Shown here: one piece after another, positions 4,595-53,432 of the stretch
Layout of the letters: every line of letters starts with the position of its first letter
Position numbering within the stretch: the stretch's first letter is position 1
Assembly: GCA_964016885.1 (NCBI GenBank)
Contig: OZ024750.1
Location: 248,001 to 312,000 of the forward strand
Source: Eledone cirrhosa
Lineage: Eukaryota
DNA length: 64,000 nucleotides
Reading direction: 5' to 3'
Notes under the pieces: generated by a model
Told to the model about the DNA's origin: nothing
What the model saw: the letters and a program-made list of their open reading frames with translations, nothing else
Database searches by the model: none
Position numbers and translations under genes: made by a program

Positions 4595-4635
4595 ATTTTC
4601 CTGATGAAGGACTTCTGTCCGAAACATTGACCTCT
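4595..4635 (+). ncRNA. Hammerhead-like core in a Penelope-type pseudo-LTR remnant (about 4500-4735)
   Basis: CTGATGA-A-GGAC(TTCT)GTCC-GAAAC at 4601-4625. Helix III and the cleavage site look decayed. Followed by a pyrimidine-rich tail and AATAAA. Confidence 0.6.
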
Positions 4636-4819
4636 CCTCCACTTTCTCCAAGCATGAACCTAATAAAACTGTTTATTTTTGCATTCCTGTGTTTGTTTTG
4701 CTCTCTTTCATTTATTAACCATATATATTAACTATATATATAATGCAGTCTTGGATACATACTCTGTATTTATACAGATATAACATCATCATATCATCAT
4801 CATCACCGTTTTACATATA

Positions 4820-6190
4820 TACTGTATATGCCAGTGTACAAGTCGATCTGGCGCGTAGGTCGACCCCTAAAATTCTGAGATGTAATTCAGGTTTAAGCCT
4901 ATATTCGCCGGATGAGACAACACCCCCCAAAAATATGGCAGTTGCAGGGGAAATAATTCAAAAAATTTAGTGGTACGCTGAAGGCTAAGACACTTCTAAA
5001 ACACTTCAGTCATAAGTGAGTTCTAACTCACTGAGTAAACCAGCCTCACCTTAACGAACCTATGGTAACCTACCATATGATAACCTAACCTATGGTAACC
5101 TACCCTATGGTAACCGACCTATAGTAACCTAATCTATGGTAACCTATCCTATGATAACCTAACCTATGGTAACCTACCCTGTGGTAACCTAACCTATGGT
5201 AACCGACCTATAGTAACCTAACCTATGGTAACCTACCATATGATAACCTAACCTATGGTAACCGACCTATAGTAACCTAACCTATGGTAACCTACCATAT
5301 GATAACCTAACCTATGGTAACCGACCTATAGCAACCTAACCTATGGTAACCTACCATATGATAACCTAACCTATGGTAACCGACCTATAGTAACCTAACC
5401 TATGGTAACCTACCATATGATAACCTAACCTATGGTAACCGACCTATAGCAACCTAACCTATGGTAACCTACCATATGATAACCTAACCTATGGTAACCG
5501 ACCTATAGTAACCTAACCTATGGTAACCTACCATATGATAACCTAACCTATGGTAACCGACCTATAGCAACCTAACCTATGGTAACCTACCATATGATAA
5601 CCTAACCTATGGTAACCGACCTATAGTAACCTAGCCTATGGTAACCTACCATATGATAACCTAACTTATGGTAACCGACCTATAGCAACCTAACCTATGG
5701 TAACCTACCATATGATAACCTAACCTATGGTAACCGACCTATAGTAACCTAACCTATGGTAACCTATCCTATGATAACCTAACCTATAGTAACCTAACCT
5801 AAGGTAACCTACCATATGATAACCTAACCTATGGTAACCTAACCTATGGTAACCGACCTATAGTAACCTAACCTATGGTAACCTACCCTACGGTAACCTA
5901 CCCTATGGTAACCTACCCTATGGTAACTTACCCTATGAGCTACGGCAAGTCATTGATATTATTATAATCTCTACGTTAAATAGACTCAACAAATATGAGA
6001 TTCAGTAGGAAATAATTGTGGTGGGCTGCTAGAGTTATGGTAAGTGGTGTACGAGTGTTAGGCAGGCAGTTTCACTGTTTACCCCTCAGTGGTAAAGGTT
6101 CACATTATATATTTGGTGGACAAGTCGACCCTTGGTTTTGGAGCGATATTTTTAGGCTTCAAATATTGACTTGTATGCCAGCATATATAT
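4820..6190. mobile_element. Tc2/pogo-like non-autonomous element containing a satellite array
   Basis: Left end TA-CTGTATATGCCAGTGTACAAGTCGA and right end TTGACTTGTATGCCAGCATATA form an imperfect TIR. GTCGACCC subterminal motifs occur at both ends. Confidence 0.55.
5058..5936. repeat. Satellite with a 15-bp monomer (AACCT AACCT ATGGT) and 59-bp and 118-bp higher-order units
   Basis: Read directly from the sequence. The AACCG ACCT ATAG(T/C) variant recurs every 59 bp, with T and C alternating. Confidence 0.95.
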
Positions 6191-7487
6191 CATCATCGTC
6201 ATTGTTTAACATTCATTTTCCACGCTAGCATGGGTTGGACGGGTTAACTTCCATAAGGCAGTAAAACATCAGTTTGCACTCAAAATACTAAAGAAAAAAC
6301 AAAACAAAACTGCTGCCATCTAATCTCGTCTGCAAATGTCACAATGTTTGATAATAAATTTGAAACGCAAGTATATTTCCCATATGAATCTTGGTATTAA
6401 CCTTATTCTGATAACACAAGTATATTTCCCATATAGATCTGGATGTAAATCTGTTTCTGATAATAAAGAGGACAGAACCCTATCCATGAACTATCATCTG
6501 AAAATCTTAACTGTTTCAGAGATAAGATGTTAAAAGAATAAATCTTCATACAGATAAAAAGATTCAATTTCTGTTCATGTTACTGCCTTAGTATATACTA
6601 TTTTCCTCTTTTACTTTTTCACTGGTTTCAGTCAATGATTAAATTGTATTGTGGTGAATTGGTAGTGCATCAGACACCATGCTTTGCAGCATAGAGTTAT
6701 GGCCCTTTATGTTTTGAGTTCAAATCCAGCCGAGGTTAGCTTTGCCTTTCATTCTTACGGGGTTACAAGCTCATGGTCAGTCATTTACCTTATTAATGTG
6801 TGTGTTTGTGTGTTTGTGTGTGTGTGTGTGTGTGTGTATTTAGAGAGAGGAGAATGAGAGAATTGATCTCGGTACTGAACTGGTACTCTATATTATTGAG
6901 CTGGGAAAGATGAAATGTAAAGTGGACCATGGTGGGATTTGAACTCAGAATGTAAAGAGCTGGAATAAATACTGCTAAGTGTTTGTCCGATGCTCTACTG
7001 ACTCTGCTATAATGATAAACATTTGATAACCTTATCCGGTAACGTGTAACCCTCGTGAAGATAAGATTTGTGAGTTATGTAATTCCAACTACTCCCCCTG
7101 TCCACATAGCAGTATCCTGATTTACACGCATGCATCTAATGTTATGTAAATATAGTTAAAAGGGAGCACTGTGCTGTGCTAGTGAGCTGGATGAAGTTCA
7201 CAAACTGGAACACAAGTTTATGTGGACTAAAACGTTTGTGAAGGTTGATGCTCACGTGATAAAGTGATGTTTATAAACCACAACTTTCACACCAAACTAT
7301 CACAGATTCTCTTCCGAAGCTGTTCACATCACATCTCTCATAATACTGTAAGTAGAAATAGTTCTTTCATATATCTTATACATTTATTACCTGTTGCATT
7401 GTGGTTCTTCTTCCAGGTCAGAACACTTATTTCTTTTAGCGTAGACTTTGGTTTTAACCCTCTATCTTAATTATTATTATTATCATC

Positions 7488-7690
7488 CAGAATCGGTAGA
7501 GCGTCGGACAACATGCTTAGCTGCATAGAATTACGGCTCTCTACGTTCTCAGTTCAAATCCCGCCGCGGTTAACTTTGCCTTTCATCCTTACAGGGCCGA
7601 TGAAATAAAGTACCAGTAATGCACTGGGGTCGATTTAATCGACTTTCCCCTCTCCCAAATTTCTTGCCTTGTGCCTAAAGTAGAAAATTT
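7488..7690 (+). mobile_element. Near full-length copy of the same tRNA-derived SINE
   Basis: A-box-like CAGAATCGGTAGAGCGTCGG, B-box AGTTCAAATCC, core, GGGGTCGATTTAATCGAC hairpin and tail. Confidence 0.85.
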
Positions 7691-10600
7691 TATTATCATC
7701 ATCTTCAAAAACTTCGTTTTATCTACTAGCAATGGGTTGGAGAGGTCGTCACACACTAAGTCAGTATTTAATCGGAGTTAATGACCTCTCAGACAGGTCT
7801 TTGGCCGTGTCTACTTACGAGTTTACACTAGCACTAGACTGTTCCTCATGTTTTTACCACAAACGAGCAACTATATCGACCCTTTATTTGCTAACTTTTG
7901 CGGCTGGGTGTCCTTCCTATCATCAATCACTTTACAGAGTGTATTGAGTACGTTTTATAACGTTTATGAAGGTTCAATCAAAAACAGTGAAATTAATTTA
8001 GAGATGTTTTGTTGATGTCTCCGATCTGTTTTTGTTTATAAATATGTGTTTGTTTTGTGCTATAAAACTTTGTATTATCATATAACAAATATATAAGATT
8101 AAATAAAAGTACATACATGTAATTAATTGATTATTGCTAGGAACCTTATAAATACACAAAATGATATAAGCAAAGCGAGAATAAGAAAAAACATCAATTT
8201 CATTTGCATATGAAGTATACAAATAAATATATTGTGCTTGTATTTTATACGTAAATGTTCATCCATAATAAAGTGAAACTGTAACAACATCCAAATATAA
8301 ACAAAAACGGTAAATGTATAGAATAACGAATATATATATATATATATATCGAATGTAGAAAAGTAACACACGAGTTGATATATATAAAAACAAATTGTAG
8401 AAAGGAAAAAGATTTTTTCAGTAAAATAAATTAATAAATTAATGTTTTAAATAAATTAATGTTTTGATATTTCACTGAAAAAATCTTTTTCCTTTCTACA
8501 ACAATTTGTTTATATATCTGTGTGTGCGTGTGCGTGTGCGTGTGTGTGTGTTCTTTCATTACAATCAATCATTTCGAAAAAAAAAAAAAATTTTCAAATT
8601 ACGTCCCTTACATCGGTTCGTTATTCTATTCGTCGACCACAAAAACACTGCTTCAGTGGTTCATTGGGTTAAAGATTTACAATTTATTAATAACATCATT
8701 TTTTAAAAATAAACGATCTCTATGAAATTACATGAGAGCAAAAGTTCACATTTTTTCCCCTAAATAAATGTGTTGACAATATAAATAGCTTGAAATTACA
8801 CATACAAATTTCATAGCTGTCAAAAATCAACACATACACACACATATCTTTATTACTTAATCACATAAATATTTCATATGAAAATATAGAATCAAAATGA
8901 AAAAAAATATTGAGTCAATATGTCACACACTACAAGGAGTGCTGGAGCCCCACTCTATTACCTTTTGAGGCAAGCCAACACACTGACAGCACTACCAAGG
9001 GTGATAGAGTGGCTAAGGCGCTGGAACAACCAAGTCACCTCACCAGACACCTGAGTATGGCTGGGTGAGGCACAGGAACAACGAAGCATGTGGTGACGAT
9101 GACGAGGATAGGATAAGTTAATTTTTACAATTATACCCGTCTCGCATTGGATGTGAAAATAATGCTTTTCCTGTGTTTTCTGGTTTGTTTTCAATGAACC
9201 AGGCCTTCGTGGGGGTGATTGTACTTGGGATGGAAGCAATGCCGGAGTTTTCTTTATAACTACATACATCTAGCTTCATACACTGAAGTGTATGATTGTT
9301 TTTTTGTTTTTTTTAATTAATCTGGTTGGGGATGGACACCCTCGGGTTTGTAAATATTACACTCATGTCTACAGTGAACTGGAGAAATGTGAAATATAGG
9401 GTCTTGCTCAAGGACACAACACCCAATCCGGGAATCGAACTCACAACCTTGAGAACCCAATGATTTAACCACTTAGCCACATGTCTTCACTAGATATTTT
9501 TTAATGTTTCATCTCTTTAGATATTCAATAAACCCACCAGCTTGGGAAATTGGATGTAAAATTATGATAATGAATTTTATTTTCAGTTTGAGTTTCTTGT
9601 GTACATGAAAGACTTAGAAACAACAAAAATGCCCAAAGAAGTTAGCATTGAACATCATAATAAAATAAACAGGTATGTGAAACTATTGATTACTAATTTC
9701 TGTTACGCAGGAACAGTGGAAGCATTTCTGAATTGGGGGGAGGGACAAATTTGGTCAATTTAGTTGTAGTGATTAGTTTAGCTGTTATCAAATATCAACC
9801 GAGATATAAAAAAACTTTGATATATGATAAACATAACACGTATATAAACTGTAGCGTATATACAAATAGATGTGTGTTTTGGTAGTTTGGGGAGTAAAAT
9901 ATATGGGGTCCCCCCAGCTCCATTGCCTCTCATATGTAAGATATTTGTTAATCCTAATTTGTCGACCTTCCCAAATTTTCAGGTTACTGGAGGGGTTTAT
10001 AATAGTTATAATGTATAATTAATCATTTTAGTTCTATCATAAATGGACCTCAGTCTGTTTCAATGAGTGTTCCAGTTGTTCAATCAGTGGAATAAACTGC
10101 TCATGAAATTAATATACAAGTGCCTGAGCATTCCACCCACATGTGTACCCATAACATAATTCTCAGTGAGATTCAGAACGACAGTGTGTGTTAAGTCTGG
10201 CCCTTTAAACTACAGGTACAGTCAATTCTACAGGCTTCCAAACAGTTTCTATCTACCCAGTTTCACACATGAGTCATGGATCAACCCAAGGCAATGATAA
10301 ATGACACTTGCTCACGATGTCACACAGTGGAATTGAACCTGGAACATTAATAATTGTCAAGTAAACACCATAACCATTTGCTATGCGTTGTCAACAGTCC
10401 TAGCATATGGTCCTAACAAAATATATAACTCTACACACAATTGGCAGTATTGTATATTGTCTAACAGTAAATTTTATAATAAATGTTGATTTTATAATCA
10501 ACCCTTTCAAGTTTATAGCTAAACCTTATCTTCCTTTGTACTAATTCGCATATCCAATTTAGATAGATAGCAACCTATCAGCTGTATTGTAGATTAGCAT

Positions 10601-16489: not shown

Positions 16490-16660
<171 letters not shown>

Positions 16661-21070: not shown

Positions 21071-21820
21071 TTAGTAGCTAGGTATTTCAGGTCCATTGTA
21101 ATCGGATTCGTCACACCAAAAATCCGCCGGCTGTTGAATTTGAACCAACCACGATATATTCCGAGAACTATTCTCTGGTTGAGTTAGAGGCGAATGTCCT
21201 TTGGTGATTTCGTAATAATTGCATCTACGATCAGAGTCCATATCGTACGGTGGAGCAAGGATATCGAGGAAGGCCGCCGGTCCACCATCCGGACGAATTT
21301 CGTGAAGATTGCCCTTAGTAGGGGATAATACACAACAATCATCGCTCACGGATGCTTTCAATTTTGGTGCTTCCAGAAAGGGCTTTGGTGTTCTTTCGTA
21401 ATCTTTGAGAAATTTTTTAAATTCATTATTAAAGCTAGTAGATGTACTGGAAGCGGAAGATGTAGATTGTTCAGTTGAAGCGGGGAGTTCATCGAAAGAT
21501 TCAAGAGAAAGGGTTCCATGGATGACTTTGATTATACCAAACATACCTGGATGATCGTGTAAAGGAATCCGACTGTTTTCTTTCAAAACAAATATTCCCA
21601 TACTGTACACTTCATCTTCGAAAATATGTATATATGTGACTGGAGCATTACTATTTTTACTTTTTTCGGTTAAAGCTGGGTTAAAGTTAACATCTCTTCC
21701 TCTTATTTGATTCATCAATTTAACAAGTTCGTTAAGCTTTTCCTGTACAGCTGGCTCTTTCAGGCTACCAGAAAAGGTCCTGCGAGCAGCTCTACTGATT
21801 TCTTGAATCAGTGACGCCAT
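21071..21820 (-). CDS. ADO: 2-aminoethanethiol (cysteamine) dioxygenase, intronless, 249 aa
   Basis: Single ORF from ATG to stop with PCO/ADO cupin motifs: APVTYIHIFEDEVYSMGIFVL, IPLHDHPGM (two Fe-binding His), GNLHEI (third His), PAAFLDILAPPY, and RRCNYY (C-x-Y cross-link motif). Confidence 0.96.
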   Translation of the reverse strand: MASLIQEISRAARRTFSGSLKEPAVQEKLNELVKLMNQIRGRDVNFNPALTEKSKNSNAPVTYIHIFEDEVYSMGIFVLKENSRIPLHDHPGMFGIIKVIHGTLSLESFDELPASTEQSTSSASSTSTSFNNEFKKFLKDYERTPKPFLEAPKLKASVSDDCCVLSPTKGNLHEIRPDGGPAAFLDILAPPYDMDSDRRCNYYEITKGHSPLTQPENSSRNISWLVQIQQPADFWCDESDYNGPEIPSY

Positions 21821-22777
21821 TCTGATGACAATCGGAGTGTGTTGGCGCCAACAATAAATCTGGATTAGTTAGGTGGGAGATAAAGACTAGTACTTGCCAC
21901 TACTCCACGTTAATGATGGCAGTCACGTAGGCTAGCTAAAGGGAGATAATATGCAGAAACTTAGAAATCCCTGTGTAAGTTAAATCCCTTAGTTTCTCAT
22001 GATAATTTTGGTGGAGAAGCCTACTTCTTATAAGGTTTCTGTTGCTAATTACACCTTTTTTTTTTAAAGTGATAACGCTCCCTAATGGGGCTATGCGTTG
22101 TGTCATTGAACAAGGTACTTTATTTCTCGTTGCTTCAGTTCACTCAGCTGGAAAAAAGGAGTTGCGATGTCACTGGTGCAAAGCTGTATCAGCTTTTATC
22201 TTTCCCTTGAATAACATCATATATAGTGTATATATAATTTATATATAGCTTATATGGTGTGTATATAATGTATATATATGAGTTGTGACATCAATGATGC
22301 TAAGCTATATCGCCATTTCCTTTCCACTGGTAACATCGGTGGCGTAGAGAGAGGAGACTGGTATGCAAGGGTGAATGCTGGTATTCCGCAAAAACACCTC
22401 GCCCAGGCTTGTGCCTCGGAGACGAACATTCCAGGTGTAGATACCATGGTAATTGGTGACCGAAGGAGACGGGTCTTTAAACCTTTATTGTTAATATTCT
22501 TGCAAAAGAAACGCACGTCTCAATTCATCCTATCCGCTTCCCTACAAATCGTAAGCATTATAATTAAGAAATTATTATTTCATGACCATAGAGAAAAGAG
22601 TAAGTTCACATCGCTAGTGTGCTTAGTTATTTCAGAACTATAGCCACGCTATTGCCTGCATCAATGCCAGTGTGTTGGCTTGACACAAAAATAATTAGAG
22701 GAACATTCTAGCCTCCCTTGTAGTATGTAACTGGGTGTGTGGGTTTTCTCCTACTTTGTAGAATGTTACATAACAGA

Positions 22778-22831
22778 TGGCTTCGACAGGACTAGAACTG
22801 TTTCATTCGAAGGAAATCATCAGGGAAGCCA
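22778..22831 (-). ncRNA. Hammerhead-like motif, family B
   Basis: Minus strand TGGCTTC-C-CTGATGA-T-TTC(CTTC)GAA-T-GAAAC-AGTTCTA-GTC-CTGTC-GAAGCCA. The outer TGGCTTC and GAAGCCA can pair. Confidence 0.55.
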
Positions 22832-23129
22832 ACTGTCATTGTAATACGGAGGTGTTTGTATGTTTTATGGTGGTTGGGAAAGGTGGTGATTTTAAGGATA
22901 GGTAGAGGTCTTTGGCTGGGGATTTTAAAGAACTGGGGTTCTTTAAAAAAACTATTTCTAGAAATGTACAGTTAATACAATAACACAGATCAGAAGCAGG
23001 TTTATATTCACACTTAAATACCTATAAACATTCATACATACTGACGCCCACATATTTTAAAATAAACAAAAGGATTTATAGTGGTTAGTTTTGTATGTAT
23101 ATTTATGTATGTGTGTATATATATATATA

Positions 23130-24833: not shown

Positions 24834-27052
24834 GTTTAACGTCCATTTTCCACGCTAGCATGGGTCTGGACGGGAATTGTCCCACTTGAGGCAAGATTGG
24901 TTGTCTTGTTCAGGACTGTCTGGCGGGTTTTCTACGGCCGGGTGCCCTTCCCAACACCAACCACATTTACAGTGTGGACTGGGAGGTTTTTACCGTGTTA
25001 CCTACACGGCCACATTACAGCGTGGACTGTGTGTTTTTGTTTTTTTTTTGTCGTGACACCTACACGACCTCATTTGTTTCGGACTGGATGTTGTGGTACC
25101 AACATAACTTCACATTTAAGGGGGTGGTGTGGATGGGGTGGGGGTAGTGGGATGGGGGTGTATTTTGTTAGAGGTGCCTACTGACTTTAGGTTTCGCTTT
25201 GTACTTAGGCAAGGCGGGTCTTCTGTATAACTGTGTAGCGCCAAAGATCTCGGTCCAGTGACATTGTCTTGGAGAGGTGTAAGTGTGTTGGGTCGGAATT
25301 TATCAAGTCGTCCCAGGTTTTTCTGGGTCTGCCTACTCCGTGGCTACCGTCTATTTTTATCGTCCTGCACTTTTTTATACAGCTGTCGTCTTTCATGCGC
25401 ATCACGTGACCATACCAACGTAGTCTTCTCTCGAGTAAACAACATCTGATCCCTCTTATTCCTAATTTCTCCCTTAGTTCGTTTATGCTTTGCCGTTCAC
25501 GTATATTACTATTACATATCCAGCGGAGCATGCAAGCTTCGTTTCTCTCCAGTCTGCGTATACCCTCTGCACACAATGCCCAGGTCTCACTGCTATGTAA
25601 CATTGCTGTTCGTATGCAGGCATCATACAGCCTGCCTTTCATTTTTAGAGAGAACCCTTTAGCGGCCAATAGTGGTATAAGCTCTCTGAACTTTTTCCAT
25701 CCCGTTCTGACTCTAGCTACTAAATTTTCAGAGCACCCTCACCCACTGCTGATTTTGTCACCCAGGTAACGGAAGCTGTCCACTATTTCTATAGAACCAT
25801 CAGTGCAATGGAATGAGCTAGTATTCTGTGGGCACTTGCTGCTACTTATTGCACCAGAGCACCGGCCACATATAAAATCTATATTCTTAGTTAGCTTACC
25901 TGTGATCCCACAACATCTTTTATGCACCCATACTTTGCATTTGGGACATAAAATGGAGTTTCTGCCTACTCTTTTCCTACACACTGAGCATGGCCATTTC
26001 CCAGATGGGACCGGTGCCCTATTTTCCTTCCTACAAACTAGAACTTTAGTCTTAGACAAGTTAACTTTAAGGCCTTTTGATTCTAGGCCATACTTCCATG
26101 TTTGGAATTTCTTCTCTAGTTCAGCCATTGATTCAGCTATGAGCGTTAGATCATCTGCATATAGGAGTTCCCATGGGCAGCCGGTCTTGAACTCCTCTGT
26201 TATAGCCTGAAGGGCAATAATAAATAGTAGGGGGCTAAGGACGGAGCCCTGATGAACACCAACTTTTACGCTAAACTCTTCACTATATTCGTTGTTAATT
26301 CTAACCTTGCTGACTGTTTCTTTATACATGGCTTGTATAGCTCTCACAAGCCATTCATCAACACCTAGTTTTCTGAAGGCCCACCAGATAATCGAGTGGG
26401 GTACTCTGTCAAAGGCTTTCTCCAAGTCAACAAAGGCTAAGTATAGGGGTTTACTTTTAGCTAGGTACTTCTCTTGTAGTTGTCGTACAATGAAGAGAGC
26501 GTCTGTTGTACTTTTACCTGACACAAACTCGAACTGCATTTCGTCTAGATCAATTGCGCTATTACTTTTTCTGTGACCTTCATGACCTGGTCAATCAATT
26601 TAATAGTTTCCCCTATCTAGGGCATCACCTTTACCCTTGTAGCAGTTAATGATGATGCTGCTGCGCCAGTCCTTCGGAACGACCCCATTCTGTATGACTT
26701 GGTTTACTATCTGAGTGACCATAGTGTGTCCCACCGTTCCAGATGCTTTCAGCATTTCAGCAACTATTTCCGAAGGCTCGGCCGCCTTGCCCGTCTTCAT
26801 GTCTTTGATCGCCTTACTTATTATACTACCTTCAACTTGCACTGCTGGTCCCTCTATTGGGTCGATGTGGGGGAGACTGTCTTTCTCCCAACTATTCTCC
26901 TAATTTAGTAGCCTTTCGTAGTGACACTTCCAAGCTACCTTCTTATCAGCGTCAGTGATGGCAAGTACACCATCATCATTAAGGACACACTTCTCCCCGA
27001 CAATATCACTGTTTTCCTTGACACATTGCCTAGCAATCCTGAACACCTCACG
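24801..27052 (-). mobile_element. 5'-truncated RTE-clade LINE with frameshifted ORF2 (RT, PHD-like insert, C-terminus) and (GAT)n tail
   Basis: ORF pieces 26600-26842, 25739-26539 and 25205-25669 carry FVDLEKAFDRVP, GVHQGSVLSPLLF, LLYADDL, FRYLG and RRLRWYGHVMRM. The 3' end is CCATGCTAGCGTGGAAAATGGACGTTAAAC(GAT)n. Confidence 0.95.
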
Positions 27053-27154
27053 TTTTTATGAAGTATATCCGTAGGAAAAGTAAAGGAAAAGAGAGTGCTC
27101 TATGTAGGCTACAGAGCTTTATAGTTATGTAATAAACAACATAAGATAATTTAT

Positions 27155-27211
27155 TCATTTACCAATGGTTTCATGAAGACAGATGTGTCTGCCTTCATTC
27201 ATCAGAACAAA
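27155..27211 (-). ncRNA. Putative minimal type I hammerhead ribozyme with an intact core
   Basis: Minus strand reads UUUGUU-CUGAUGA-AUGAAGGCAGA(CACA)UCUGUCUUCAU-GAA-ACC(AUU)GGU-A-AAUGAA. This gives the full core consensus, an 11-bp helix II, a 3-bp helix III, a GUA cleavage triplet and a wobble-rich 6-bp helix I. Confidence 0.75.
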
Positions 27212-27997
27212 TTTGTTCTGATGAATTATCTTATGTTGTTTATTACAAAACTATATATTATATATATATATATGAAATAATACTTTTTTTCTTTTTTCTT
27301 TTTTCATGTGTGCATAATTATTTCTTTTTGACTCTTTAACACGTCTTTCTCATAAAATATATTGATACTAACTTAACTGAAGGGTATTTAGTCCCTGGTT
27401 TTACTGTTATTTCTTTGCCCTGTATGAACATAAATATAGTTATCATATCATATTTATTCTTTTCATTTCAGAGCTAACAACTTCAGTCATAAATACTCAC
27501 TCAAAAATTATAATTTATGGGTGAGTATTTATAACTTCAATAATTATTGAAGGCAGAAAGTGTTTTACTTTAAATAGAATGCATATAAATAAGCACAATT
27601 TATATTTTAAAATAAACTATAAAATAAAAATGGGCGAAACACGGAAAAAGGCTCGCACATTGGATCACATACCACAAGGGACGCTCGAGTTTCGTTCTAA
27701 CCTTTTTAGGCAACACAATTGGAGCAGCATTTTTTTTTTTTTACAAATCTAATATAATGTCCGTAAATTAATCTTTTTTTCCTTTATTTTCTTTCTCTTT
27801 GTTTGTTTAAAGCTTCGATAATTTTCTGATAAGAATAAGGAAAGAAATTCTGAATGACATTTAGGTTTTTCCGTAATTCGATAAACTGTGACACGGAATA
27901 TTAATGAAAGCATTCAAGTACCTGCTAACAGCATTACTGTAAGAGTTGTCTATCCATTTTAAAATCGTCAACTGATGTAATTGGATTACAACAAAAG

Positions 27998-40139: not shown

Positions 40140-40520
40140 AAGACCACTGCAAAGCTTCTATCGCTTCACATGAAATAGTCATTCCCGACTCAACTTCTGA
40201 AATCTAAGAACAGGTTTTGGATACCTCTTCTCGGTACACAGACACACAAATAAAAACAACAACATGCACCTCATCCACACACAGATAACACCAGGGACCT
40301 AGACACACTGAAACCACCTCTACAAACTCCAGCATGCCAGACAACTCCCTCCCACAAACACCTCACCAGTTCTCATAAATATTTTTTCTTCAACTTTTCA
40401 ATTTCCTTTTTCTCCTAACTTTACTTTTTGCTGATGAAGGGCTAACATCCGATATATTGACACATTCCTTTTCTTTTCCCAATAAGCGTGAAACAAATAA
40501 CACTTTGTGTAATCATATCT
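40140..40520 (+). mobile_element. Penelope-like pLTR remnant with a degraded hammerhead core
   Basis: LKSKNRFWIPLLGT resembles the C-terminal end of Penelope GIY-YIG ORFs. CTGATGAAGGG...CCGATATATTGAC at 40431 and its tail resemble the 4600 copy. Confidence 0.5.
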
Positions 40521-42159
40521 CTGTGTTTATATATAAATATGTACATACACCCGAAATTGCTTGGCGCTGCGTTCGGGATTCTCTCTTACTCTCATATATA
40601 TATATATATAGTAATAATAATAGAAACACCAAAATCTAGAGACAACTTGATAAGGGTTGTATATATATATATAAGTATATATATAAACCTGTAGAGTAAA
40701 TATTTGTTATCAGATTAAAAGTTTAAGCAAACAATTTCTGCTTTCACCCTAGAGCGAGATGATTTCATACAAATGAAACAGTTCTAGTCCTGTAGAAGTC
40801 ATTTCTATATATATAATAAAGATATATATCTATATGTATGTATCTATGATGTGAGTTTGTACACACATGAATAAATGGGTATTCTGATGTCTTCCTCTCA
40901 CTGAAATCTGTAATAAAAAAACACTCATTAATGGTTACCCATGTTTATTATAGTTAAACAGTCAAGCCAATTGATCACATTATTGTAGAACATAAATAAA
41001 TATATGTCCTTTTTAAATATATATTTTATATATGAGATGAAACAGGATGAGTTGATATCAGTCAGCTGAATTATCAATGATTAATATTATATCACAAATA
41101 CTACAACCTATTGATGGCCATTCTGCTATTTCACTTACAAACGGTTCAGTTCTCTTAGCTGTAAATAAGCATCAGGGAAGATAGAACTTACCACTGTAAG
41201 CGAAGGGGCATAGAATAACTGACAAGTATTTCATTAACTTGCAGTATCATTTTATTAGTAACACTGAAAACTGAATATTATGATGTCATGGTGTATGACA
41301 TTTCTGGAAATAATGTCTGTTAAACCTTTTTGACACAGAACCACCTGAAACTGCTCCTGGTTCTACTATAAAAGACTGTTTTAAAGAGCTTATATGTATC
41401 TAAAAAGCTTCCATTATAATTTTATATAAAAACCTTTGTTAAATTATGTTCCAAACAAACTTAATAATGAGAAACTTAGTTACATTCCTAAGTCTCACCA
41501 AATTCTTCATTATGTATTTTTCAAAATTAATTGAAAATCATAGGCAGTGTCTTTCATTAGAAATATGGTAGCAAAAAGGTCAACTCCCTGCAGGGTTACC
41601 CCAGACTTTATAGGATAAAAATGAATTGTTTATTTGCTTATTTAATGACAATATATGAAGAAGATGTGAGAGGTGGGAACCATCACAGACAACAATTGGT
41701 TAAGAATCCTATAGATATATACAGCCTGGTCAATTATTGGCTTTTACCCCCATAGTTGCCCTATATCTGTTATGGGATAATGGTTTTACCCCCATAGTTG
41801 CCCTATATCTGTTATGGGATAATGTTGTCATCATTGCTTGGTATAGCTCCTTATGTATTTGTGAGAGAGAAAGAAAGTTGTGTGTGTGAAAGAGAGAGAG
41901 AGTGTGTGTATGTGTGTGACAGGGTGTGTAAGAGAGAGAAAGAGAGTGAGTGAGTGAGTGTGTGTGTGATTTCTATAGAATGGTCTTGATTAGAATATGT
42001 CTGAGTGGAGATTCTTCAGTGATGTGTTATAGAGAAGCTGGAAATAAATATATACACACACACATATATACACATACACATATATACACACATACATATA
42101 AATATACAACACACATATACATATATATACACACAAGGAATTTTATAGAGGTTGCTTAA

Positions 42160-42450: not shown

Positions 42451-44996
42451 TTAAATGACACCAAACTTGTAAAATTCCTTTTATGCCCAATAAACATACA
42501 TATATAGTTTATACACACACATATACATATACACACTCACAGAGATCATATAAATATAAAGAGAATTTTTTCTATATTTGTATAAGTATGTGTGTGTACA
42601 AATTACACACACACTCGATAAGTATTGTATATATAAAAAAGTATATATAAACCCGTAGAGCAAATATTTATTATTAGTTTCAGAAGATCCAATAATAGGG
42701 TGAAAGCAACGATTCTTTGCTTAAACTTTAATCTGTACTAATAAATAAATATATATATATACACACATATATATACGTACATATATATGTATAGACGAGT
42801 TGTCCTAATGTCAGCAATGCTAAGTCAAGTGACCATGCCTTGCTCAGTTCTGTATAAGCAAAGGATGGTCACCTGACCCATCATTGCCCACAACAGGGCA
42901 ACTTGTCTAACCCATGCTAGCATAGAAAAATGGATATAAAACGGTGATGATGATGATGATGATAATGATATGCCCACATTCATGCATACAATATTTTTTG
43001 CAAGCAAATATTACATATATTACGGTGACCTCTCAAAACAGCAGACTTTATTCTGCAGAGTTAAAAGCTCTACATCACTCATCAGTGATTCAATAAAGAC
43101 CGACTGATGGTGTTTCATCTTTCACAACAACTCCTATGTACAAGATGAGATATATATGAAGCAGAATTTACCCACATTGTCATTTCTACATTGGTCATTT
43201 GATACAGGAGCACTAACAACAGATGTGCTTTAAATCTGGCTACTTATCACCAAATAGAAGCTTTTTGAAGATTTTTTTTTTCAGTTTACCATATCGATTT
43301 GTGTATTTCAGAAGGTAGGGTTTTGGAGGTTTTTCTTCTTTTTTTTTTGTCTGGAAACTGATAACAGGAGATTCTTCCAAGTCATTGGTTATATTTTTTT
43401 ATATTTTACAAAATTCCCTTGTCCCTTTTGGAGTAAATTGAGGATCGAAATCTGACTGAGGATAAACTCCATTCAGTGGTGTCATTTCAAAGATCTGGTG
43501 GATGAAACAGAAATAAAAAATAGCATCTGTAAATATTTTATTCTTTAGAAATATTTTATATATAGAATATATTTTATTGTAAATATTTTATAATTTAGAA
43601 TTTATAATAGAAATTTTCTTTTCTATTATATATATAAATACTCAAATATATTCTGAGGACAAGATTACATAAAAATAATAAAGAATTTAATATTTAGTCA
43701 AATATACAGAAAAAGAAAGTAGTATTGGGAACGACTATAAATGCTATAAATGAGGAAAAAAGGAGGGGAAGAGCAAGGATTGTTAAGACAACAAAAGAAG
43801 GGGGAAGGAGAGAGGGTGAGAAACTCTACGCCTAGTTTAGAGCAGTGTTTTGGCTGCACCCAGCAGACAAAATGGCAAAGGCATTTCATCAACTTTAGTT
43901 GTGTAAAGAAAATGACAGCCTCTCTAGTGTTGGTGACACAATAAAATATACCTAGTGCTCTCTGTGAAGAGATTGATGCTAGGAATGGTATCCAATCATA
44001 GATAATTTGCCAAACAAAGATTCAGGAGGACTCTTCAGTTGTGTAAAAGACATGATAAAATGCACCTTGCACACATACTCTGTAGATTGTGGGAATGTAT
44101 GTAAAATGTAGTCCTGGTTATCTAAGAAATCAGTAGCTTGATTAAGTATTTATTGACTTGCACTGTAACAACCTGTCCAACCCTCGCTAACAGAGATAAT
44201 GGATGTTAAATGATGACGATGGTGTGTATGCGTGTATACAATAAAAGAATAGGGTAACGATATTTATGTGTGTGTATGTTTCTTTAGAGAGATCCCACTA
44301 ATTAGATATATAAATATCTATCTTACTTATAAAAGTGAAGATTGGCATCAGAAAGGACATTCCAGGCTAAAGCTCTGCCTCATCCAATCCATGATGGTAA
44401 AAGTGTTGGACAACATGCTTTGTGGCATAGAGTTATAGCTCTTTACTTCTGATTTCAAATCCTGCATAGGTTAGCTTTGTCTTCTATCCTTATAAGGATC
44501 GATAAAATAAAGTACCAGTAATGCAATGAGGTCGATTTAATCAACTTTACCCTCTCCCCAAAATTGTTGACCTCGTGTCTAAATCAAAAACCATCATTAT
44601 TATTATTATTGTGATGTTGATGATGATCTTTCTATTAAAAAATACTACAATTCATTTAAATATAATAATTGGGATTTTTAGTCACATACTTCTTGGCTCG
44701 TATTTCAGTATCATTATTATTTTGCAACCATAGATGTTTAAACTGGGATTTTAGTCAAAAACCCCGTCATTCAACATTGCCTTTATTTCCTTCTTCCAGT
44801 CACTTCAAAGCACCAACACACTTCTCTTTCAATTTTTCCTATATTTCATCTGCCTGTCACCCAACTTGTGGATTATCTCTGTTGATCACTTGCCACTGGT
44901 CTTGAGGCATTTTTGCCCAGCACTGTCTTTAACGGCATTAAGCTGTTTTAACAGCTGTTCTAGCGATCAATTTTCTCTCTCTCTCTATATATATAT

Positions 44997-46496
44997 ATCG
45001 ATCTCGAGAAAGCCTTTGACAGAGTTCCCCATGCTATAATCTGGTGGGCTCTTAGAACACTAGGAGTAGATGAATGGTTTGTGAAAGCTGTACAAGCCAT
45101 GTATAGGGGAGCAGTCAGCAAAGTTAGGATTAGCAATGACTATAGCGAGGAATTTAGCATACAGGTCGGTGTCCACCAGGGCTCTGTTCTTAGCCCTCTC
45201 CTGTTCATCATAGTTTTGCAGGCAATAACGGAGGAGTTTAAGACCAGATGCCCATGGGAACTCCTGTATGCAGATGACCTTGCACTTATAGCTGAATCTA
45301 TGGTAGAACTAGAGAAGAAATTCCAAACTTGGAAGCAGGGACTAGAAAGAAAGGGTCTCAAAGTCAACCTGACAAAGACTAAAGTTCTTGTAAGTAGATA
45401 AGAAACAGAACCCAGGTCCCCTCGGGGAAATGGCCTTGCTCAGTATGTAGGAAAGATGTAGGTAGGAACTCCATTCTCTGCCCCAAATGCAAACAATGGG
45501 TAAACAAGAGATGTAGTGGGATCTCAGGAAGTTTAACTAAGAATGTAGGCTTCACATGTAGCAGCTGTGCTGGAACAGCAAGCAGCAAACAGCCACAGGA
45601 AACAAGTACCACCAAACTCTGGGAGGGCTCTGTAGAAACAGTAGACAGATTCTGCTACCTAGGTGACCGAATTAGCAGCGGAGGTGGGTGTTCGGAAAGT
45701 ACAATAACTAGGGTAAGAACGGGATGGAAGAAGTTCAGGGAGCTACTGCCACTGCTAGCTGCAAAAGGCTTTTTCCTCAAAATGAAAGGCAGACTGTATG
45801 ATGCATGTATACAAACAGCAATGTTACATGGTAGTGAGACCTGGGTGCTGTAGATTAGAAAGAAACGAACCCTGCATGCTCCGATGGATGTGTAATAGTA
45901 ATATACGCGAACGGCAAAGTATAAACGAATTGAGACTGAGCATAAGAGGAATCAAATGCTGTGTGCAGGAGAGGCAGTTGCGTTGGTATGAACATATGAT
46001 GCATATGAAAGATGACAGCTGCATAAAAAGGTGCAGAGCACTAGAAGTCAATGGAAACCACGGAGTGGGGAAACCCAAGAAGACCTGGTATGAGGTGATA
46101 AAAGCCGACCATACCCAATTGCACCTCTCAAAGGCGATGTCACACGACCATGACCTCTGGAATACAGAAGACCCGACCCCCCACGGGTACAAGCCGAAGC
46201 TGAAACATGTAGACAATATGCCCGCACACCCTCCCACTGCAAAATGGTCGTGGAGGTGCCATGACAAAAAAGCACCCAGCCCACACTGTAACGTGGACGT
46301 GTAGGTGCCACGGAAAAAAAGCACCCATCACTCACTGTAAATGAGGTTGGTGTTAGGAAGGGCATCCAGCTGTAGAAATCAAACCAGAATCAGTTCCTGT
46401 ATGAGCAAGACAAGGTCAGCTGACAGGACAACCCGTCTAACCCATGCTAGCGTGGAAGAACAGACGTAAAACGGTGATGATGATGATGATGATGAT
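44997..46496 (+). mobile_element. Second 5'-truncated copy of the same RTE LINE family (decayed)
   Basis: DLEKAFDRVP, GVHQGSVLSPLLF, LLYADDL and the same Cys-rich insert, with stops and frameshifts. Ends in CCCATGCTAGCGTGGAAG...(GAT)n. Confidence 0.93.
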
Positions 46497-46786: not shown

Positions 46787-46821
<35 letters not shown>

Positions 46822-48845: not shown

Positions 48846-50068
48846 AGAGAATAGAGTGACCTTGGATCTGTATAAAAATCTTCAATTTTAGCCCTTTCAT
48901 TATATTTTTAATGAAATACACTGTTTCTGAATTAATTGCTGAAAACATTGGAGGGATTTACTAAAATTATTAATCATTCCATTATTAAGATGAACTTAAT
49001 AAAAGGTTCTTATATCAAATTCATGTTAATGGCCAAGGAAAAATTATCCTGGTCTGTTACCTTAAAGATCACATCCCTAATGGATAAAGACCCATACAAT
49101 ATAGAAGGGAGCCATCTGGTGTGCAGGATCCCAGGTGCTAATCACCTCATGGTCTCAGCAAACAGAATGGAGAAAGTACTGCCCCAGATAATGGCAAACG
49201 AGATGTGTTGGATTAGCCATTCCAGCTTGATGGTCTTGTGCTTAAAATCTCCAGTAGCCTTAGGCTGCCAAGGATTCTGGACAATATGGGAGAACAAAGA
49301 AGGAATGAAAGCATATTGTGACCAGTGATGTATAAGGACATCTAATTGATCCAAGGACATTGGTAGAGAAAGCTGGGTCACTTCTCAACTAAGAGAGAAG
49401 TTTGTCTATTGTGTGATCTTTCTGAATAAGAACAATAGACAGGTATTACAGAGTTTCAACTGAGCACCTAAACCCTTTAGCATTTACATTACTTTATATT
49501 TACTATTATATTTTCACGGTAATTATCTCACATAATATCGAATCTGAGATTTTGGTATTATTTATTTTTAGAACAATACCTTAACATCAGTATGATGTTA
49601 AGGTATGGTTACAACCATACCTTAACATCATAGTATTTAATTAGCTTGCCAAGTCATGCTGACAGGAAGTAGTAAAGAAATTCCATTTTATTTCTAATGT
49701 CAAAGAGTGAAGGTTAAGTGGATAAAGAGTTGTCTCCCTTTAAAAGGGTTTGGACATGTATGTCTAAGTGTGTGTGAGAGAATATGTGAAGGTGTAAGCA
49801 TGTGTGTGTGTGTGAATGAGAGAGGATATGTTTATATGTAAATGTGGGAACTAGATGCTTTATCATGTTTTGAAACTGGTCTAAGTGTATGTGTGTGAGA
49901 ATAAGTAAAGGTGTAAGCATGCGTGTGTGTGTGAGTGTGAGAGGATACGTGTGTGTGTGAGTGTGAGAGGATACGTGGAGGTGTAAGTGTGGGGGCTATA
50001 TATATCGACAGATCACTATAAAAGACAATGTATATATATCATCTACTACACTTGACTATGACACACAC

Positions 50069-50215
<147 letters not shown>

Positions 50216-51322
50216 CACACATATATATATACACATTTCATTTTTCCATGCTAGCATCTATATATATATATATATATATATCCAGCGGTGAACCACCAAA
50301 CTTAACGTTATATATTGCTACGACACTTCACTATAAAACACATAATCTATAATGCTAATAAATAGCAAGCAAAATAAAACAAATTCGACATTGACAGTAT
50401 GTAGAACATTAAAAAAGTTAAAATATCTCAAAGCCTGGAAAAGTTAAGTAACACTATCAATGGCAAACACGTTTGTGAACAATATCAAGTATTTGATCAT
50501 ATTATACAACATTCAACCCTTCAGCATTCACATTCTACATTTACTGTTATATTTTCACAGTAAAGGCTTTACCCCATAATTATCTCACATAATAATTATT
50601 ATTATTATATTGAATCTATGAGATTTTGATATTTATTTTGAGAAGAATACCTTAACATCAGTATGAGCGGCCAGTTACAGCTGGTTTGAACAGTAAGAGG
50701 TGAGAGATTCTGGCTGGATATGGCCAGTTTAAATGCCAAAGGGTTAAACAAACTGATTTTTTTAAAATTCCATGTAAATTTGTCTTGTCATTCTTTTAAA
50801 ACTCTCCCACAACAAAATTAAATTGATTAAATATGAAAATATTTTATTGAAAATCCTTATTTGACTTTTGAAAATTATCTTTATTAATTTGCTTATTAAA
50901 TAAACATTTCTTCTGCATACAGGAAACTATGTTATGAAATTTGCATAAAGCAGTTTTTCTTTACTAAAGAAAAAACTCAGTATTTAAATAAAATAAACTT
51001 TGGATAAACAAATGAAGATTGAATTTTTGTTTTATTTTATTCATAGAACTTTTATGTTAACATAATGGTTTCGTTGAAACAGGGGTCATAACAAAGTGAA
51101 AGCCTCAATTTCAGTATTAAGCAAATTAAGCAAACGGAGGGGGGGGGGGGGGGTAAACTTTCTGTTATGAAAGAAATTGATTTGAGAAATTATATATATA
51201 ATTTCTGAATCCAATGCTTCATATTATTCCTAGAGACTTTTCTGGATTTCTTTAAAGTATTATTATTATTTGTTTAAATTGATTTCCTATGATAGTATGG
51301 GTGATGTTCCTCACCACCCATC

Positions 51323-51361
<39 letters not shown>

Positions 51362-51586
51362 ATAACAAGTAGAAGAAGCCATTATTTTCAATACAGCAGA
51401 GTTAGATATGCAGGTTAGCTTGTCCTTGTTCTAAGGGGCCATTGTTACACAAGGTTTGAACTGAAGACATAGGATCGATACACCACCACTTTCAATTTAT
51501 AGCCCGTATATATATATATATATATAAATATATACACACACACATATATATTAATATATATATATATATTAATATATATATATATA

Positions 51587-51710
51587 TTAATATAGAAGAG
51601 CTTCTACAGGACTAGAACTGTTTCATTCGTGAAAAATCATCAGGAAACGCTTCCCGATGATTTCTCACGAATGAAACAGTTCTAGTCCTGTAGAAGCTCT
51701 TCTATATTAA
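51587..51710. repeat. Near-perfect palindrome (about 60-bp arms) made of two back-to-back family-B hammerhead-like motifs
   Basis: TTAATATAGAAGAGCTTCTACAGGACTAGAACTGTTTCATTCGTGA...TCATCAGG is followed by its reverse complement, with a few mismatches and a loop of about 4 nt. Confidence 0.9.
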
Positions 51711-51857
51711 AACATTTATACTCTGCTTTGTATTGAGTACCTTACTTACTGTGGTTACCTCCGATTCAACCAGGAATAACTTTCATCATCACCGTTTTAC
51801 GTCCGTTCTTCCACGCTAGCATAGACTTTATATATATATTTATATATACATATATAT

Positions 51858-52554
51858 ATATAAACGTTTGTATGTATAATAAAGCCAAAACAATGCAGGT
51901 ATGGACATAGAATAAAGAATGCAAATGCAAAAGATATTGTTGACAATTAGTCTTTTACCTTAGATTTATTTAAATATCCTTAATTTTCGAGATAATATCT
52001 CTTCTTTGGAGGGAAGTAAAGCAGTTAAACCAGTGTTCTAAATAGCTTGCCAAGTCATGCTGACAGGAAATGGTAGAGAGTATCTGTTCTATCTCTAATA
52101 TCAAAGAGTTAAGGTTAGGTGGATAAAGAGTAGTCTCCCTTTAAAAGGGTTTTTTTTTTTGTACATGGCTGTTTAAGTGTGTGGGAGAATGCGTGAAGGT
52201 GTAAGTAAGTGTGTGTGTGAGAAGATATGTCTATACGTACGTAAATGTGGGGGGTAGATGTTATCTCGTGTTAGAACTGGTCTTTGTGTGTGTATGTGTG
52301 AGAGAGAATAAGTGAAGGTGTAAGCGTGTGTGTGTGTGGCCATTTCTGTCAGCATGACTTGGCAAGCTATTTAGAACACTGGTTTACCGCTTTACTTCCC
52401 TCCGAAGAAGAGATATTATCTCGAAAATTAAGGACATTTAAATAAATCTAAGGTAAAAGATTAATTGTCAACAATATCTTTTGCATTTGCATTCTTTATT
52501 CTATGTCCATACCTGCATTGTTTTGGCTTTATTATACATATACAAACGTTTATA
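51858..52554. repeat. Long inverted repeat (about 215-bp arms, about 266-bp spacer), probable inverted Penelope pLTR pair
   Basis: 51858-52073 is the reverse complement of 52340-52554 with few mismatches. The right arm has CCGAAGA-A-GAGAT(ATT)ATCTC-GAAA and the left arm has a further-mutated copy. The spacer family recurs at 49640-49990. Confidence 0.88.
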
Positions 52555-52647
52555 CCTCATTACAACTGTAACTCCCTCCATATATATATATATATGTTTA
52601 TATATATATATAAACATATATATATAAATATATACACATATATATAT

Positions 52648-52985
52648 GGAGGCACATGGCTTAATGGTTAGAGCATTGGCCTTGCAATCAAAAGGTTGTG
52701 AGTTCAATTCTCAGACCGGGTGATGTGTTGTTTCCTTGAGCAAGACACTTTATTTCACATTGCTCCAGTTTACTCAGCTGTAGAAATGAGATGGTAGGGA
52801 CTGGGGTCCATATCATTCCACTGCAAAGTGGTCGTGGAGGTGCCACGGCAAAAAAGCACCCAGCACTCACTGTAAATGAGGTTGGTGTTAGGAAGGGCAT
52901 CCAGCTGTAGAAATCAAGCCAGAATCAGTTCCCATCCCACCCTTGCTAGCAGGGAAAAGCGGACGTAAAATGAATGAAATGAATA
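52648..52985 (+). mobile_element. Second tRNA-derived SINE family with an RTE-derived 3' tail
   Basis: Head GGCACATGGCTTAATGGTTAG...GAGTTCAATTC; body CCTTGAGCAAGACACTT...TGCTCCAGTTTACTCAGCTG. The 3' part matches the RTE 3' UTR at 46230-46470. Confidence 0.75.
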
Positions 52986-53319
52986 TATATATCCAAGTCT
53001 AAAGTCTGTCTTAAGCCAGAAGGCTCATTTGGCCGGTGCTTATCCCGGTTTCATGGCGTGAAGTGATTCAGAGTACAAGACTCCCCCCTGGACAGGACGC
53101 CAGTCCATCGCAGGGTTAAACCTCCAGCTATTGCTGGTACCATTTCCAGCTGAGTATACTAGAGCAACGTGAATGTATATATATATAAATATACATATAT
53201 ACACATATATACACACACACATATACATATATATACACACACATATACATATATGTGTGTATATATATATATACACATATATAAATATGTAATATATAGA
53301 TCCCGAGTAAAATTGGGGT

Positions 53320-53432
53320 GGGGGTAACCACAGTTAAAAAAAGTATTCAATATATTAGTAGAGTATAAGGAATGTCCTGATGATTTCATATGAATGAAAC
53401 AGTTCCAGTCTTGTAGAAGCCATTTCTATATT
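53320..53432 (+). mobile_element. Penelope-like pLTR remnant with a family-B hammerhead-like motif, preceded by an inverted piece of its own tail
   Basis: CTGATGATTTCATATGAATGAAACAGTTCCAGTC at 53377-53410. GGTAACCACAGT...GTATTCAATA upstream is the reverse complement of the tail seen at 51730-51759. Confidence 0.55.

What the first reader, a model, noticed from the sequence alone, without database searches (positions are those of the whole stretch)
4595..53432. About ten hammerhead-like cores from at least four sequence families in one 64-kb window
Seen: CUGANGA-stem-GAAA motifs at 4601 (+), 40431 (+, decayed), 22778-22831 (-), 40755-40800 (+, decayed), both arms of 51587-51710, 53377 (+), 27155-27211 (-), 52402 (+) with its inverted twin near 51990-52010 (-), and a weak one near 42680 (+). 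In family B the helix II loop varies (CTTC, TCAC, ATAT) while the TTC/GAA stem and GAAAC...GTC are mostly kept, as expected if structure were under selection. Inference: this genome hosts very abundant non-autonomous, ribozyme-bearing Penelope pLTR or retrozyme-like elements, and this may be under-annotated in cephalopods. No Penelope RT ORF is visible in the window.
Basis: partly seen in the sequence, partly recalled or inferred. Interest (0 to 1): 0.75.

Follow-up and report, generated by a model that had tools for sequence, protein, structure and literature searches.

The report
Penelope retrotransposon hammerhead end fragments
These motifs are the hammerhead-bearing end pieces of a known kind of jumping gene (Penelope-like elements), present in tens of thousands of copies in this animal genome, and in the commonest family most young copies stop sharply at the ribozyme's front edge, which likely marks where the element's RNA begins and so hints at how these elements copy themselves.

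Summary
The motifs are real: ten cores plus one partial arm, in five repeat families (A-E), all dispersed genome-wide (family B: 24,101 exact hits, control 0). They are 5'-truncated pLTR ends of autonomous Penelope-like elements, not retrozymes. B matches both pLTRs of a young Hydra-clade element (intact 713-aa ORF, TERT-like fold). D matches a canonical RT+GIY-YIG element, and A lies downstream of GIY-YIG remnants. C and E are likely Hydra-type. Hydra elements with such hammerheads, one from Octopus, are published, so the kind is known. Only about three window copies keep core and helices; cleavage is untested.

I found no paper describing the end statistics. About 65% of young B copies stop within 7 nt upstream of CUGAUGA, about 30 nt after a TATA box. 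4,748 B hairpins have spacers of 20 nt or less, 57 of 60 carry one 'tailed' arm, and three insertions join arms of two different families. The likely reading is two separately primed cDNAs running off the 5' end of an uncleaved RNA. This scan noted a similar strong-stop reading in another genome. Verdict: new members of a known kind, with a testable mechanism.

The parts
4200..4720 (+). Family A 3' end: 3'UTR remnant plus minimal hammerhead (core at 4601, extra A before helix II; palindromic helix III ACGT here changed to ACAT; helix I 2 bp). Boundaries approximate.
   Evidence: GIY-YIG remnant about 1.3 kb upstream of a relative; A-type pattern 6,037 genome hits
22777..23061 (-). Family B (CTTC-loop subfamily) pLTR piece extending about 240 nt upstream; intact type I hammerhead, core at 22823, GUC site, helix I with one bulge
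27058..27253 (.). Family C two-armed insertion: tailed minus arm with intact hammerhead (core 27205, 11-bp helix II) head-to-head with a plus arm that has lost most of its core
40380..40530 (+). Decayed family A-type end (core 40431; GAAA changed to GATA). Boundaries approximate.
40594..40815 (.). Mixed two-armed insertion: tailed family E arm (minus, 40594-40750, cut inside helix II) joined head-to-head to a short family B arm (plus, 40758-40810, core start lost)
   Evidence: two more E/B joins in the genome
42614..42752 (.). Family E insertion: plus arm with decayed hammerhead (core 42681, U4 to A) and an inverted tail-only arm
49638..49965 (-). Older family D 3'UTR fragment without hammerhead
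   Evidence: 75% to the 3'UTR of L139
51587..51786 (.). Family B hairpin: short minus arm 51587-51646 (intact core 51643) and tailed plus arm 51651-51786 (core 51654, U4 to C); cores 10 nt apart; (TA)n on the short side
51871..52554 (.). Family D two-armed insertion: minus arm to 52338 carrying about 330 nt of 3'UTR (core CCAAAGA near 52009) and tailed plus arm 52340-52554 (core CCGAAGA at 52402, palindromic helix III AATT)
53300..53435 (.). Family B insertion: inverted tail-only arm joined to a plus arm starting at helix I (core 53377; 5' strand of helix I disrupted). Left boundary approximate.

Best explanation
The sites are 5'-truncated end pieces (pLTRs) of Penelope-like retrotransposons, and in family B they were likely left when two separately primed cDNAs ran off the predicted start of the element's uncleaved RNA and were joined head-to-head. 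Shown: family membership, ORF-bearing parents for B and D, ends in (TA)n, two alternative 3' ends (short, about 22 nt past the cleavage site, and tailed, about 60 nt further), one of each per hairpin, a sharp 5' stop 5-7 nt before CUGAUGA in B, a TATA box about 30 nt before that stop, and mixed-family arms. Inferred: (1) the GIY-YIG domain nicks both strands of (TA)n and RT starts at the two internal sites, as shown in vitro for anole Poseidon; (2) the RNA starts at the 5' strand of helix I; (3) the template is uncleaved at that hammerhead; (4) longer copies and full pLTR-ORF-pLTR units come from read-through templates, or from a jump to the RNA 3' end using the hammerhead core, which would be repeated at both ends like a retroviral R region; (5) the hammerhead cleaves in the parent RNA. 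Most window copies are decayed by-products with no function of their own.
For: B pattern 24,101 hits vs 0 control. 8 of 9 fetched parent loci show hammerhead-tail-ATG and a 713-aa ORF; 5 also show the 3' pLTR hammerhead within the stretch. Hydra hallmarks RWR, DKT, CxCx5C, CxxC/CxH, no CCHH. Model pLDDT 92.8, best PDB match TERT, E 1e-9. Family D: inverted copy + partial tandem + 905-codon frame with RVT_1 and GIY-YIG. Young B subfamily exact counts: core 4,311; with 5 nt upstream 3,276; with 8 nt 1,495; with 13 nt 1,425, i.e. a 54% loss over 3 nt, then 4.7% over 5 nt. Hairpins with spacer 0-20: 4,748; spacer 21-50: 403; 34 of the first 50 have spacers of 4-8. TATAAATA at -36 and -37 in two diverged subfamilies whose arms stop at -5/-6 and -6/-7. 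57 of 60 hairpins have exactly one tailed arm. Only 26 hairpins centre near the cleavage site, 1 exactly. E/B mixed arms occur in both tail orientations. Helix I has changes on both sides at 2 of 6 pairs between subfamilies. PMC11167929: internal RT start at two sites, tail between them, unprocessed RNA the main substrate, product shortens with 5' truncation.
Against: No RNA data bear on the start site or on cleavage. The test for an untemplated cap-derived G was inconclusive. The predicted start coincides with the distal end of helix I, so a structure-caused stop fits the same counts; some junctions hold short inverted copies of the 3' strand of helix I. Family C arms mostly end 9-15 nt upstream, some at 3-4, less sharply. 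Family D shows no such stop (29 arms of 14-900 nt, a sample biased against short arms; 7 short hairpins, CCGA subfamily only). TATA distance is 30 or 38-43 in some copies, and D. virilis Penelope has a TATA-less promoter well upstream of its hammerhead. Helices II and III of B show no double-sided change; MFE folds of several B copies, the young parent's included, are not the hammerhead; Rfam finds nothing. The parent link for C rests on one locus with a (TA)n break and no 3' pLTR found; none was sought for E. The U4C subfamily of D spread at 94-99% identity, so catalysis may be dispensable.
Confidence: 0.68

Rival explanations
1. Same elements, but the sharp 5' stop is caused by RNA or cDNA structure: once both strands of helix I are copied, the cDNA end folds back or RT falls off, whatever the transcript start.
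For: The stop equals the edge of helix I in B (5-7 bp) and roughly in C (9 bp). Junction spacers sometimes contain the inverted 3' strand of helix I. Family D, with only a 3-bp helix I, shows no stop.
Against: TATA-to-stop spacing of about 30 nt in two diverged subfamilies. Anole PLE RT products shorten with 5' truncation of the template, i.e. RT reaches the RNA end. About a third of young copies pass the site and then lose under 1% per nt.
Confidence: 0.2
2. The inverted pairs arise by self-priming (fold-back) on one template, possibly antisense, as proposed for rotifer Penelope, rather than from two separately primed cDNAs.
For: Palindromes at inverted junctions were read this way in PMC3846280 (passages). 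Many junctions are near-perfect palindromes.
Against: Three insertions join arms of two different families, which one template cannot give. The arms end at different 3' sites in 57 of 60 hairpins.
Confidence: 0.05
3. The window copies are monomers of non-autonomous retrozymes or SINE-like RNAs that spread through circles made by hammerhead cleavage and ligation.
For: A 9 x 311-bp hammerhead tandem and a 1.08-kb tandem of the B pLTR exist elsewhere in the genome. Retrozymes derive from PLE pLTRs. Genomic ends lie past the cleavage site, which a circle would also explain.
Against: No window copy is tandem. B and D copies match pLTR and 3'UTR of ORF-bearing elements. A circular template has no end at -5/-6.
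Confidence: 0.05
4. Chance motifs in AT-rich DNA, or terminal inverted repeats of MITEs.
For: A relaxed descriptor gives no excess over shuffles; no Rfam hammerhead hit.
Against: Strict descriptor 3 vs 0; genome counts with zero controls; position in pLTRs of RT-EN elements; arms diverge from a centre and end asymmetrically, unlike TIRs.
Confidence: 0.01

Closest known systems
Hydra clade of C-terminal EN+ Penelope-like elements, incl. Hydra-1_Obim (Craig et al. 2021, PMC8557442; seen: passages, section 11, supplement part 2 with Files S1 and S2)
   Same: RW[KR], DKT, CxCx5C, CxxC/CxH, no CCHH; (TA)n target; type I hammerhead with 4-bp helix III and unpaired bases flanking helix II (U.U in many File S2 rows).
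   Different: The family B parent spans 4.8-6.0 kb between hammerheads (published: generally <3 kb) because of a 2.5-3.1 kb microsatellite-like 3'UTR. Its hammerhead differs by eye from Hydra-1_Obim (8-nt loop III). Copy numbers and end statistics are not in the parts read.
Minimal PLE hammerheads (Cervera and de la Pena 2014, PMC4209133; seen: parts 1-2 of 4)
   Same: Families A and D: extra nucleotide after A9, G10.1-C11.1, short helix I, palindromic helix III suited to dimers; mostly solo copies; opposite-strand pairs 100-700 bp apart noted there.
   Different: B, C and E have a monomer-type helix III and no G10.1-C11.1 pair. Pairs only 4-8 nt apart are not described in the parts read. A D subfamily carries U4C.
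Anole Poseidon PAc in vitro mechanism (Frangieh et al. 2024, PMC11167929; seen: parts 1-2 of 4 and passages)
   Same: Two internal RT start sites bounding a tail; both strands nicked and extended; uncleaved RNA used; predicted dimer.
   Different: Different clade. No hit there for 'template jump', 'transcription start' or 'circular', and 'inverted' only as a reagent, so the 5' stop and head-to-head joining are not addressed.
Non-LTR retrozymes (PMC7229834, passages; bioRxiv 10.64898/2026.07.22.740005, part 1 of 5 and passages)
   Same: Type I hammerhead; pLTR origin; a 311-bp array of this kind is in the genome (L172).
   Different: Window copies are solo or head-to-head, not tandem, and have coding parents.

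Membership tests
EN+ Penelope-like elements | Single ORF with telomerase-like RT and C-terminal GIY-YIG | tested here: met
   B: 713 aa, YRDD, TERT best fold match; GIY-YIG Pfam E 2e-4 on the C-terminal part, none on the whole protein. D: RVT_1 and GIY-YIG above cut-off. Met by parents, not in the window.
EN+ Penelope-like elements | pLTRs with hammerhead, partial tandems, inverted 5'-truncated copy, optional tail | tested here: met
   L174, L176, L177, L179, L180 (B); L314-L316 (D); window hairpins
Hydra clade (family B parent) | RWK-type motif, DKT, CxCx5C linker, CxxC and CxH, no CCHH | tested here: met
   RWR38, DKT116, CNCLNKETC566, CDLC666, CMH694
Hydra clade (family B parent) | Insertion into (TA)n | tested here: met
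   arm ends
Hydra clade (family B parent) | Short element, generally <3 kb | tested here: not met
   4.8-6.0 kb between hammerheads; the excess is the microsatellite-like 3'UTR. A tendency in the paper, not a strict criterion.
Hydra clade (family B parent) | Phylogenetic placement with published Hydra RTs | not tested
Hydra clade (families C, E) | Hammerhead in both pLTRs of a Hydra ORF | tested here: inconclusive
   C: one locus with RWK/DKT/CxCx5C ORF 400 nt downstream across a (TA)n break, no 3' pLTR found. E: no parent sought; Hydra-type core, and arms joined to B.
Canonical PLE clades (families D, A) | GxKF, DKG, CCHH (D); linker type decides the clade | tested here: inconclusive
   D frame shows GPKF, DKG, CxxC..H..H and a Cys-rich linker by eye; Nematis-like is my reading, no tree. 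A: only EN remnants (5 of 20 loci with an A-type motif downstream); Neptune-like is recalled.
Type I hammerhead ribozyme | CUGANGA, GAAA, NUH with helices I-III | tested here: met
   22823, 51643, 27205; family B pairs 91.9%. Not met by the five core-mutated copies.
Type I hammerhead ribozyme | G10.1-C11.1 pair | tested here: not met
   U.U in B; A.A or C.A in most C copies by eye. Published Hydra hammerheads share this. Met in A and D.
Type I hammerhead ribozyme | Self-cleavage | not testable with these tools
   needs an assay or end-mapped RNA
Non-LTR retrozyme | Head-to-tail 150-400 bp units each with a hammerhead, non-coding | tested here: not met
   no such array in the window; met by L172 elsewhere

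The most novel reading that the evidence does not exclude
Hydra-clade Penelope elements start their RNA at the first bases of the hammerhead and replicate by a strong-stop and strand-transfer cycle. Two RT subunits prime on separate RNAs at the two internal sites, run to the RNA 5' end, and either join head-to-head (thousands of hairpins, rarely of two families) or jump through the hammerhead core, which acts as an R repeat once the 3' hammerhead has cut, so building the pLTR. This would give the PLE hammerhead a defined job and link PLE and LTR-type replication. The active element also carries 2.5-3 kb of TA/TG repeat in its 3'UTR and may seed its own targets.
Probability: 0.35. Interest if true: 0.8.

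Novelty: new member of a known kind. Interest (0 to 1): 0.5.

Why it matters
As an annotation this is ordinary: hammerheads in Penelope pLTRs have been known since 2014, and Hydra elements in Octopus since 2021. The value lies in the end statistics. How PLEs make pLTRs and inverted copies, and what their hammerhead does, is still open in the papers read. A young family with thousands of near-identical insertions gives base-level maps of where copying starts and stops, and the mixed-family arms argue for two templates per insertion. This yields exact predictions (RNA start at -5 to -7, uncleaved template) that one CAGE or 5' RACE run and one in vitro assay can test.

Tried and rejected
Rfam scan: no hammerhead family at E<=1, only microsatellite-driven miRNA hits. 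Relaxed motif descriptor: no excess. A 2.55-kb tandem on C14 held only Hydra ORF fragments, no parent. Cap-G test: inconclusive, because opposite-arm bases and short fill-ins give the same letters. Arms ending at the cleavage site: 26 loci, 1 exact, no pile-up. My first guess of a start at -11 for the CTTC subfamily was wrong (arms stop at -6/-7), and a start at -3 for family C fits only a minority of arms. I first took the U.U pair as new; File S2 of PMC8557442 already shows it. No intact family A parent found: 8 young copies had no PLE ORF within 5-6 kb upstream. Genome-wide CTGANGA-N10-30-GAAA gives 443,601 vs 148,254 control, too crude for a copy number. PDB sequence-profile search found nothing; BLASTP between the B and D proteins aligned only the DKT/DKG stretch. 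The bacterial promoter scan is not relevant to Pol II. A look for scrambled hammerheads in the window showed nothing convincing by eye. Lunse et al. 2017 is not held, so the effect of U4C is unchecked. A counted tally of family C 10.1/11.1 bases and the TATA distance for the GCTTC subfamily are left open; both are by eye only. Searches for prior description found no paper on a 5' stop at the hammerhead edge or on mixed-family arms; subscription papers (Arkhipova 2006, Pyatkov 2004, Evgen'ev 2005) and unread supplements may hold it.
Full report
Observation. All ten sites are present. A strict hammerhead descriptor finds 3 window sites against 0 in 12 of 12 shuffles; a relaxed one finds no excess (25 vs 14-30), and Rfam finds no hammerhead. 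The decayed sites are therefore confirmed by homology. Each belongs to a dispersed repeat in the 3.0-Gb genome G000. Exact patterns give 24,101 hits for B and 6,037 for A-type, controls 0. There are five families: A (4601, 40431), B (22823, 40758, 51643, 51654, 53377), C (27205), D (52402, 52009) and E (42681, plus an arm at 40594-40750). Three copies keep core and all helices; two keep the core with a broken helix I; five have core changes.

Hammerhead anatomy. B is type I: helix I 5-7 bp; U.U then a 3-bp helix II; helix III ACAG/CUGU with an 8-nt loop; cleavage after GUA (GUC at 22823). In 121 cores the loop II positions are 40-63% conserved and the stem 93-100%. In an 18-row alignment 91.9% of cells pair, and helix I has double-sided changes at 2 of 6 pairs, while helices II and III have none; these are few independent events. 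MFE folding often prefers other structures. C has a long helix II and a 1-nt loop III. A and D are minimal, with palindromic helix III, as in PMC4209133 (parts 1-2 read). The missing G10.1-C11.1 pair of B, C and E is already in published Hydra hammerheads (File S2 of PMC8557442).

Parents. No PLE coding remnant is in the window. Elsewhere, B sits directly before an ORF. A protein search scored 150 of 70,552 candidates, all 94-100% identical, 17 of them in a 758-codon open frame. Of 9 loci fetched, 8 show hammerhead, tail, ATG and 713 aa, and 5 show the same hammerhead again 4.8-6.0 kb later. The protein has the Hydra motifs RWR, DKT, CxCx5C, CxxC and CxH and lacks CCHH (against section 11 of PMC8557442). 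Pfam misses its RT, but the model (pLDDT 92.8) matches TERT best. D has a textbook locus: inverted copy, partial tandem and a 905-codon frame with RVT_1 and GIY-YIG. A has a GIY-YIG remnant about 1.3 kb upstream in one relative, and A-type motifs follow 5 of 20 related EN hits. C precedes a Hydra ORF in one locus, across a (TA)n break and without a 3' pLTR. No parent was sought for E. No tree was built.

Ends. Arms end in (TA)n either about 22 nt past the cleavage site or about 60 nt further (the tail), and 57 of 60 B hairpins have exactly one tailed arm. This matches the two internal RT start sites of anole Poseidon (PMC11167929, parts 1-2 read). At the 5' side B stops sharply. Young-subfamily counts are 4,311, 3,276, 1,495 and 1,425 for 0, 5, 8 and 13 nt of upstream sequence, so about 65% end within 7 nt of the core. 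Head-to-head pairs number 4,748 with spacers of 0-20 nt and 403 with 21-50 nt; 34 of the first 50 have spacers of 4-8 nt. In the first 30 loci of the general pattern, 14 stop and 16 extend (four pairs among them are arms of one insertion). TATAAATA lies at -36 and -37 in two diverged subfamilies whose arms stop at -5/-6 and -6/-7; the roughly 30-nt TATA-to-start spacing of Pol II promoters is recalled knowledge, and TATA plus Inr in pLTRs was noted for rotifers (PMC3846280, passages). Hairpins centred at the cleavage site are rare (26, one exact), so cleaved RNA is seldom the template. The window's 40594-40815 joins a tailed E arm to a short B arm. L326 is the reverse case, and L327 a third. 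This points to two RNAs per insertion and against self-priming on one.

Against. There is no direct evidence for the start site or for cleavage. The cap-G test was inconclusive. The stop coincides with the edge of helix I, so structure could cause it. C stops less sharply, and D shows no stop in a biased sample. D. virilis Penelope has a TATA-less promoter (PMC2377424, passages).

Mechanism. Shown: identity, parents, end positions, mixed arms. Inferred: double nick in (TA)n; two RT starts on separate uncleaved RNAs; run-off at an RNA start in helix I; head-to-head joining; longer copies from read-through RNA or a jump through the hammerhead core repeated at both RNA ends. Confidence is about 0.95 that these are PLE ends, and 0.68 for the whole statement.

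Known and new. Hammerheads in pLTRs, inverted truncated copies, tails, Hydra in Octopus and abundant Penelope in cephalopods are in print. Retrozymes do not describe the window copies, though a 311-bp array exists elsewhere. Eight paper searches found no account of the 5' stop or of mixed arms. I noted the strong-stop idea; I saw that this scan had proposed it in another genome (e1-8651555) and the one-of-each rule in this genome (e1-8804728). Those notes are not independent support. Verdict: new members of a known kind; interest 0.5, carried by the testable mechanism.

Noticed in passing
G000:C2:258899500-258907500 (L174), also L177, L180: The young Hydra-B element carries a 2.5-3.1 kb 3'UTR of which 61-68% is TA/TG runs, with a shared pattern across copies; it could spread its own target repeats. 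Four marker words of it are absent from the window.
   Followed up: partly
L172 (G000:C1:1241766-1244278): Nine identical 311-bp tandem units, each with a type I hammerhead (palindromic helix III): a retrozyme-like array ending in (TA)n.
   Followed up: partly
L317 (G000:C1:83678500-83686500): Tandem of about 1.08-kb units made of the Hydra-B pLTR, tail and microsatellite; 12 copies listed.
   Followed up: partly
L182-L190: Further hammerhead families in the first 2.5 Mb of contig C1, several with unpaired bases flanking helix II; parents not sought.
   Followed up: no
window 51719-51737: Small hairpin (ACTC...GAGT) just past the short end of family B, as noted in earlier findings.
   Followed up: partly
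window 21071-21868 (-): Uninterrupted frame for a cysteamine dioxygenase (ADO)-type protein, Pfam PCO_ADO E 4e-50.
   Followed up: no
window 25205-26590 (-) and 44964-46304 (+): Pieces of a LINE with RT and PHD finger, about 80% alike and inverted; RTE-like by recall.
   Followed up: no
window 57917-59426 (-): Two short frames that read like exons of a SEC14/GOLD-type protein (by eye, recalled).
   Followed up: no
window 53430-54110 and about ten other sites: Abundant SINE-like repeat, here in a tandem cluster starting right at the end of the family B copy.
   Followed up: no
window 58784-58926: Hairpin with arms of about 35 bp around an A-rich spacer; no hammerhead core; possibly a MITE.
   Followed up: no
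window 5061-5937, 61806-62340, 63487-63869: Minisatellites with 59-, 28- and 29-bp units.
   Followed up: no
L116-L135 vs L282-L293, L314-L316: Family D copies nearest the window's copy mostly read CCGAAGA, whereas 20 of 21 ORF-linked cores read CTGAAGA: a U4C subfamily amplified recently.
   Followed up: partly
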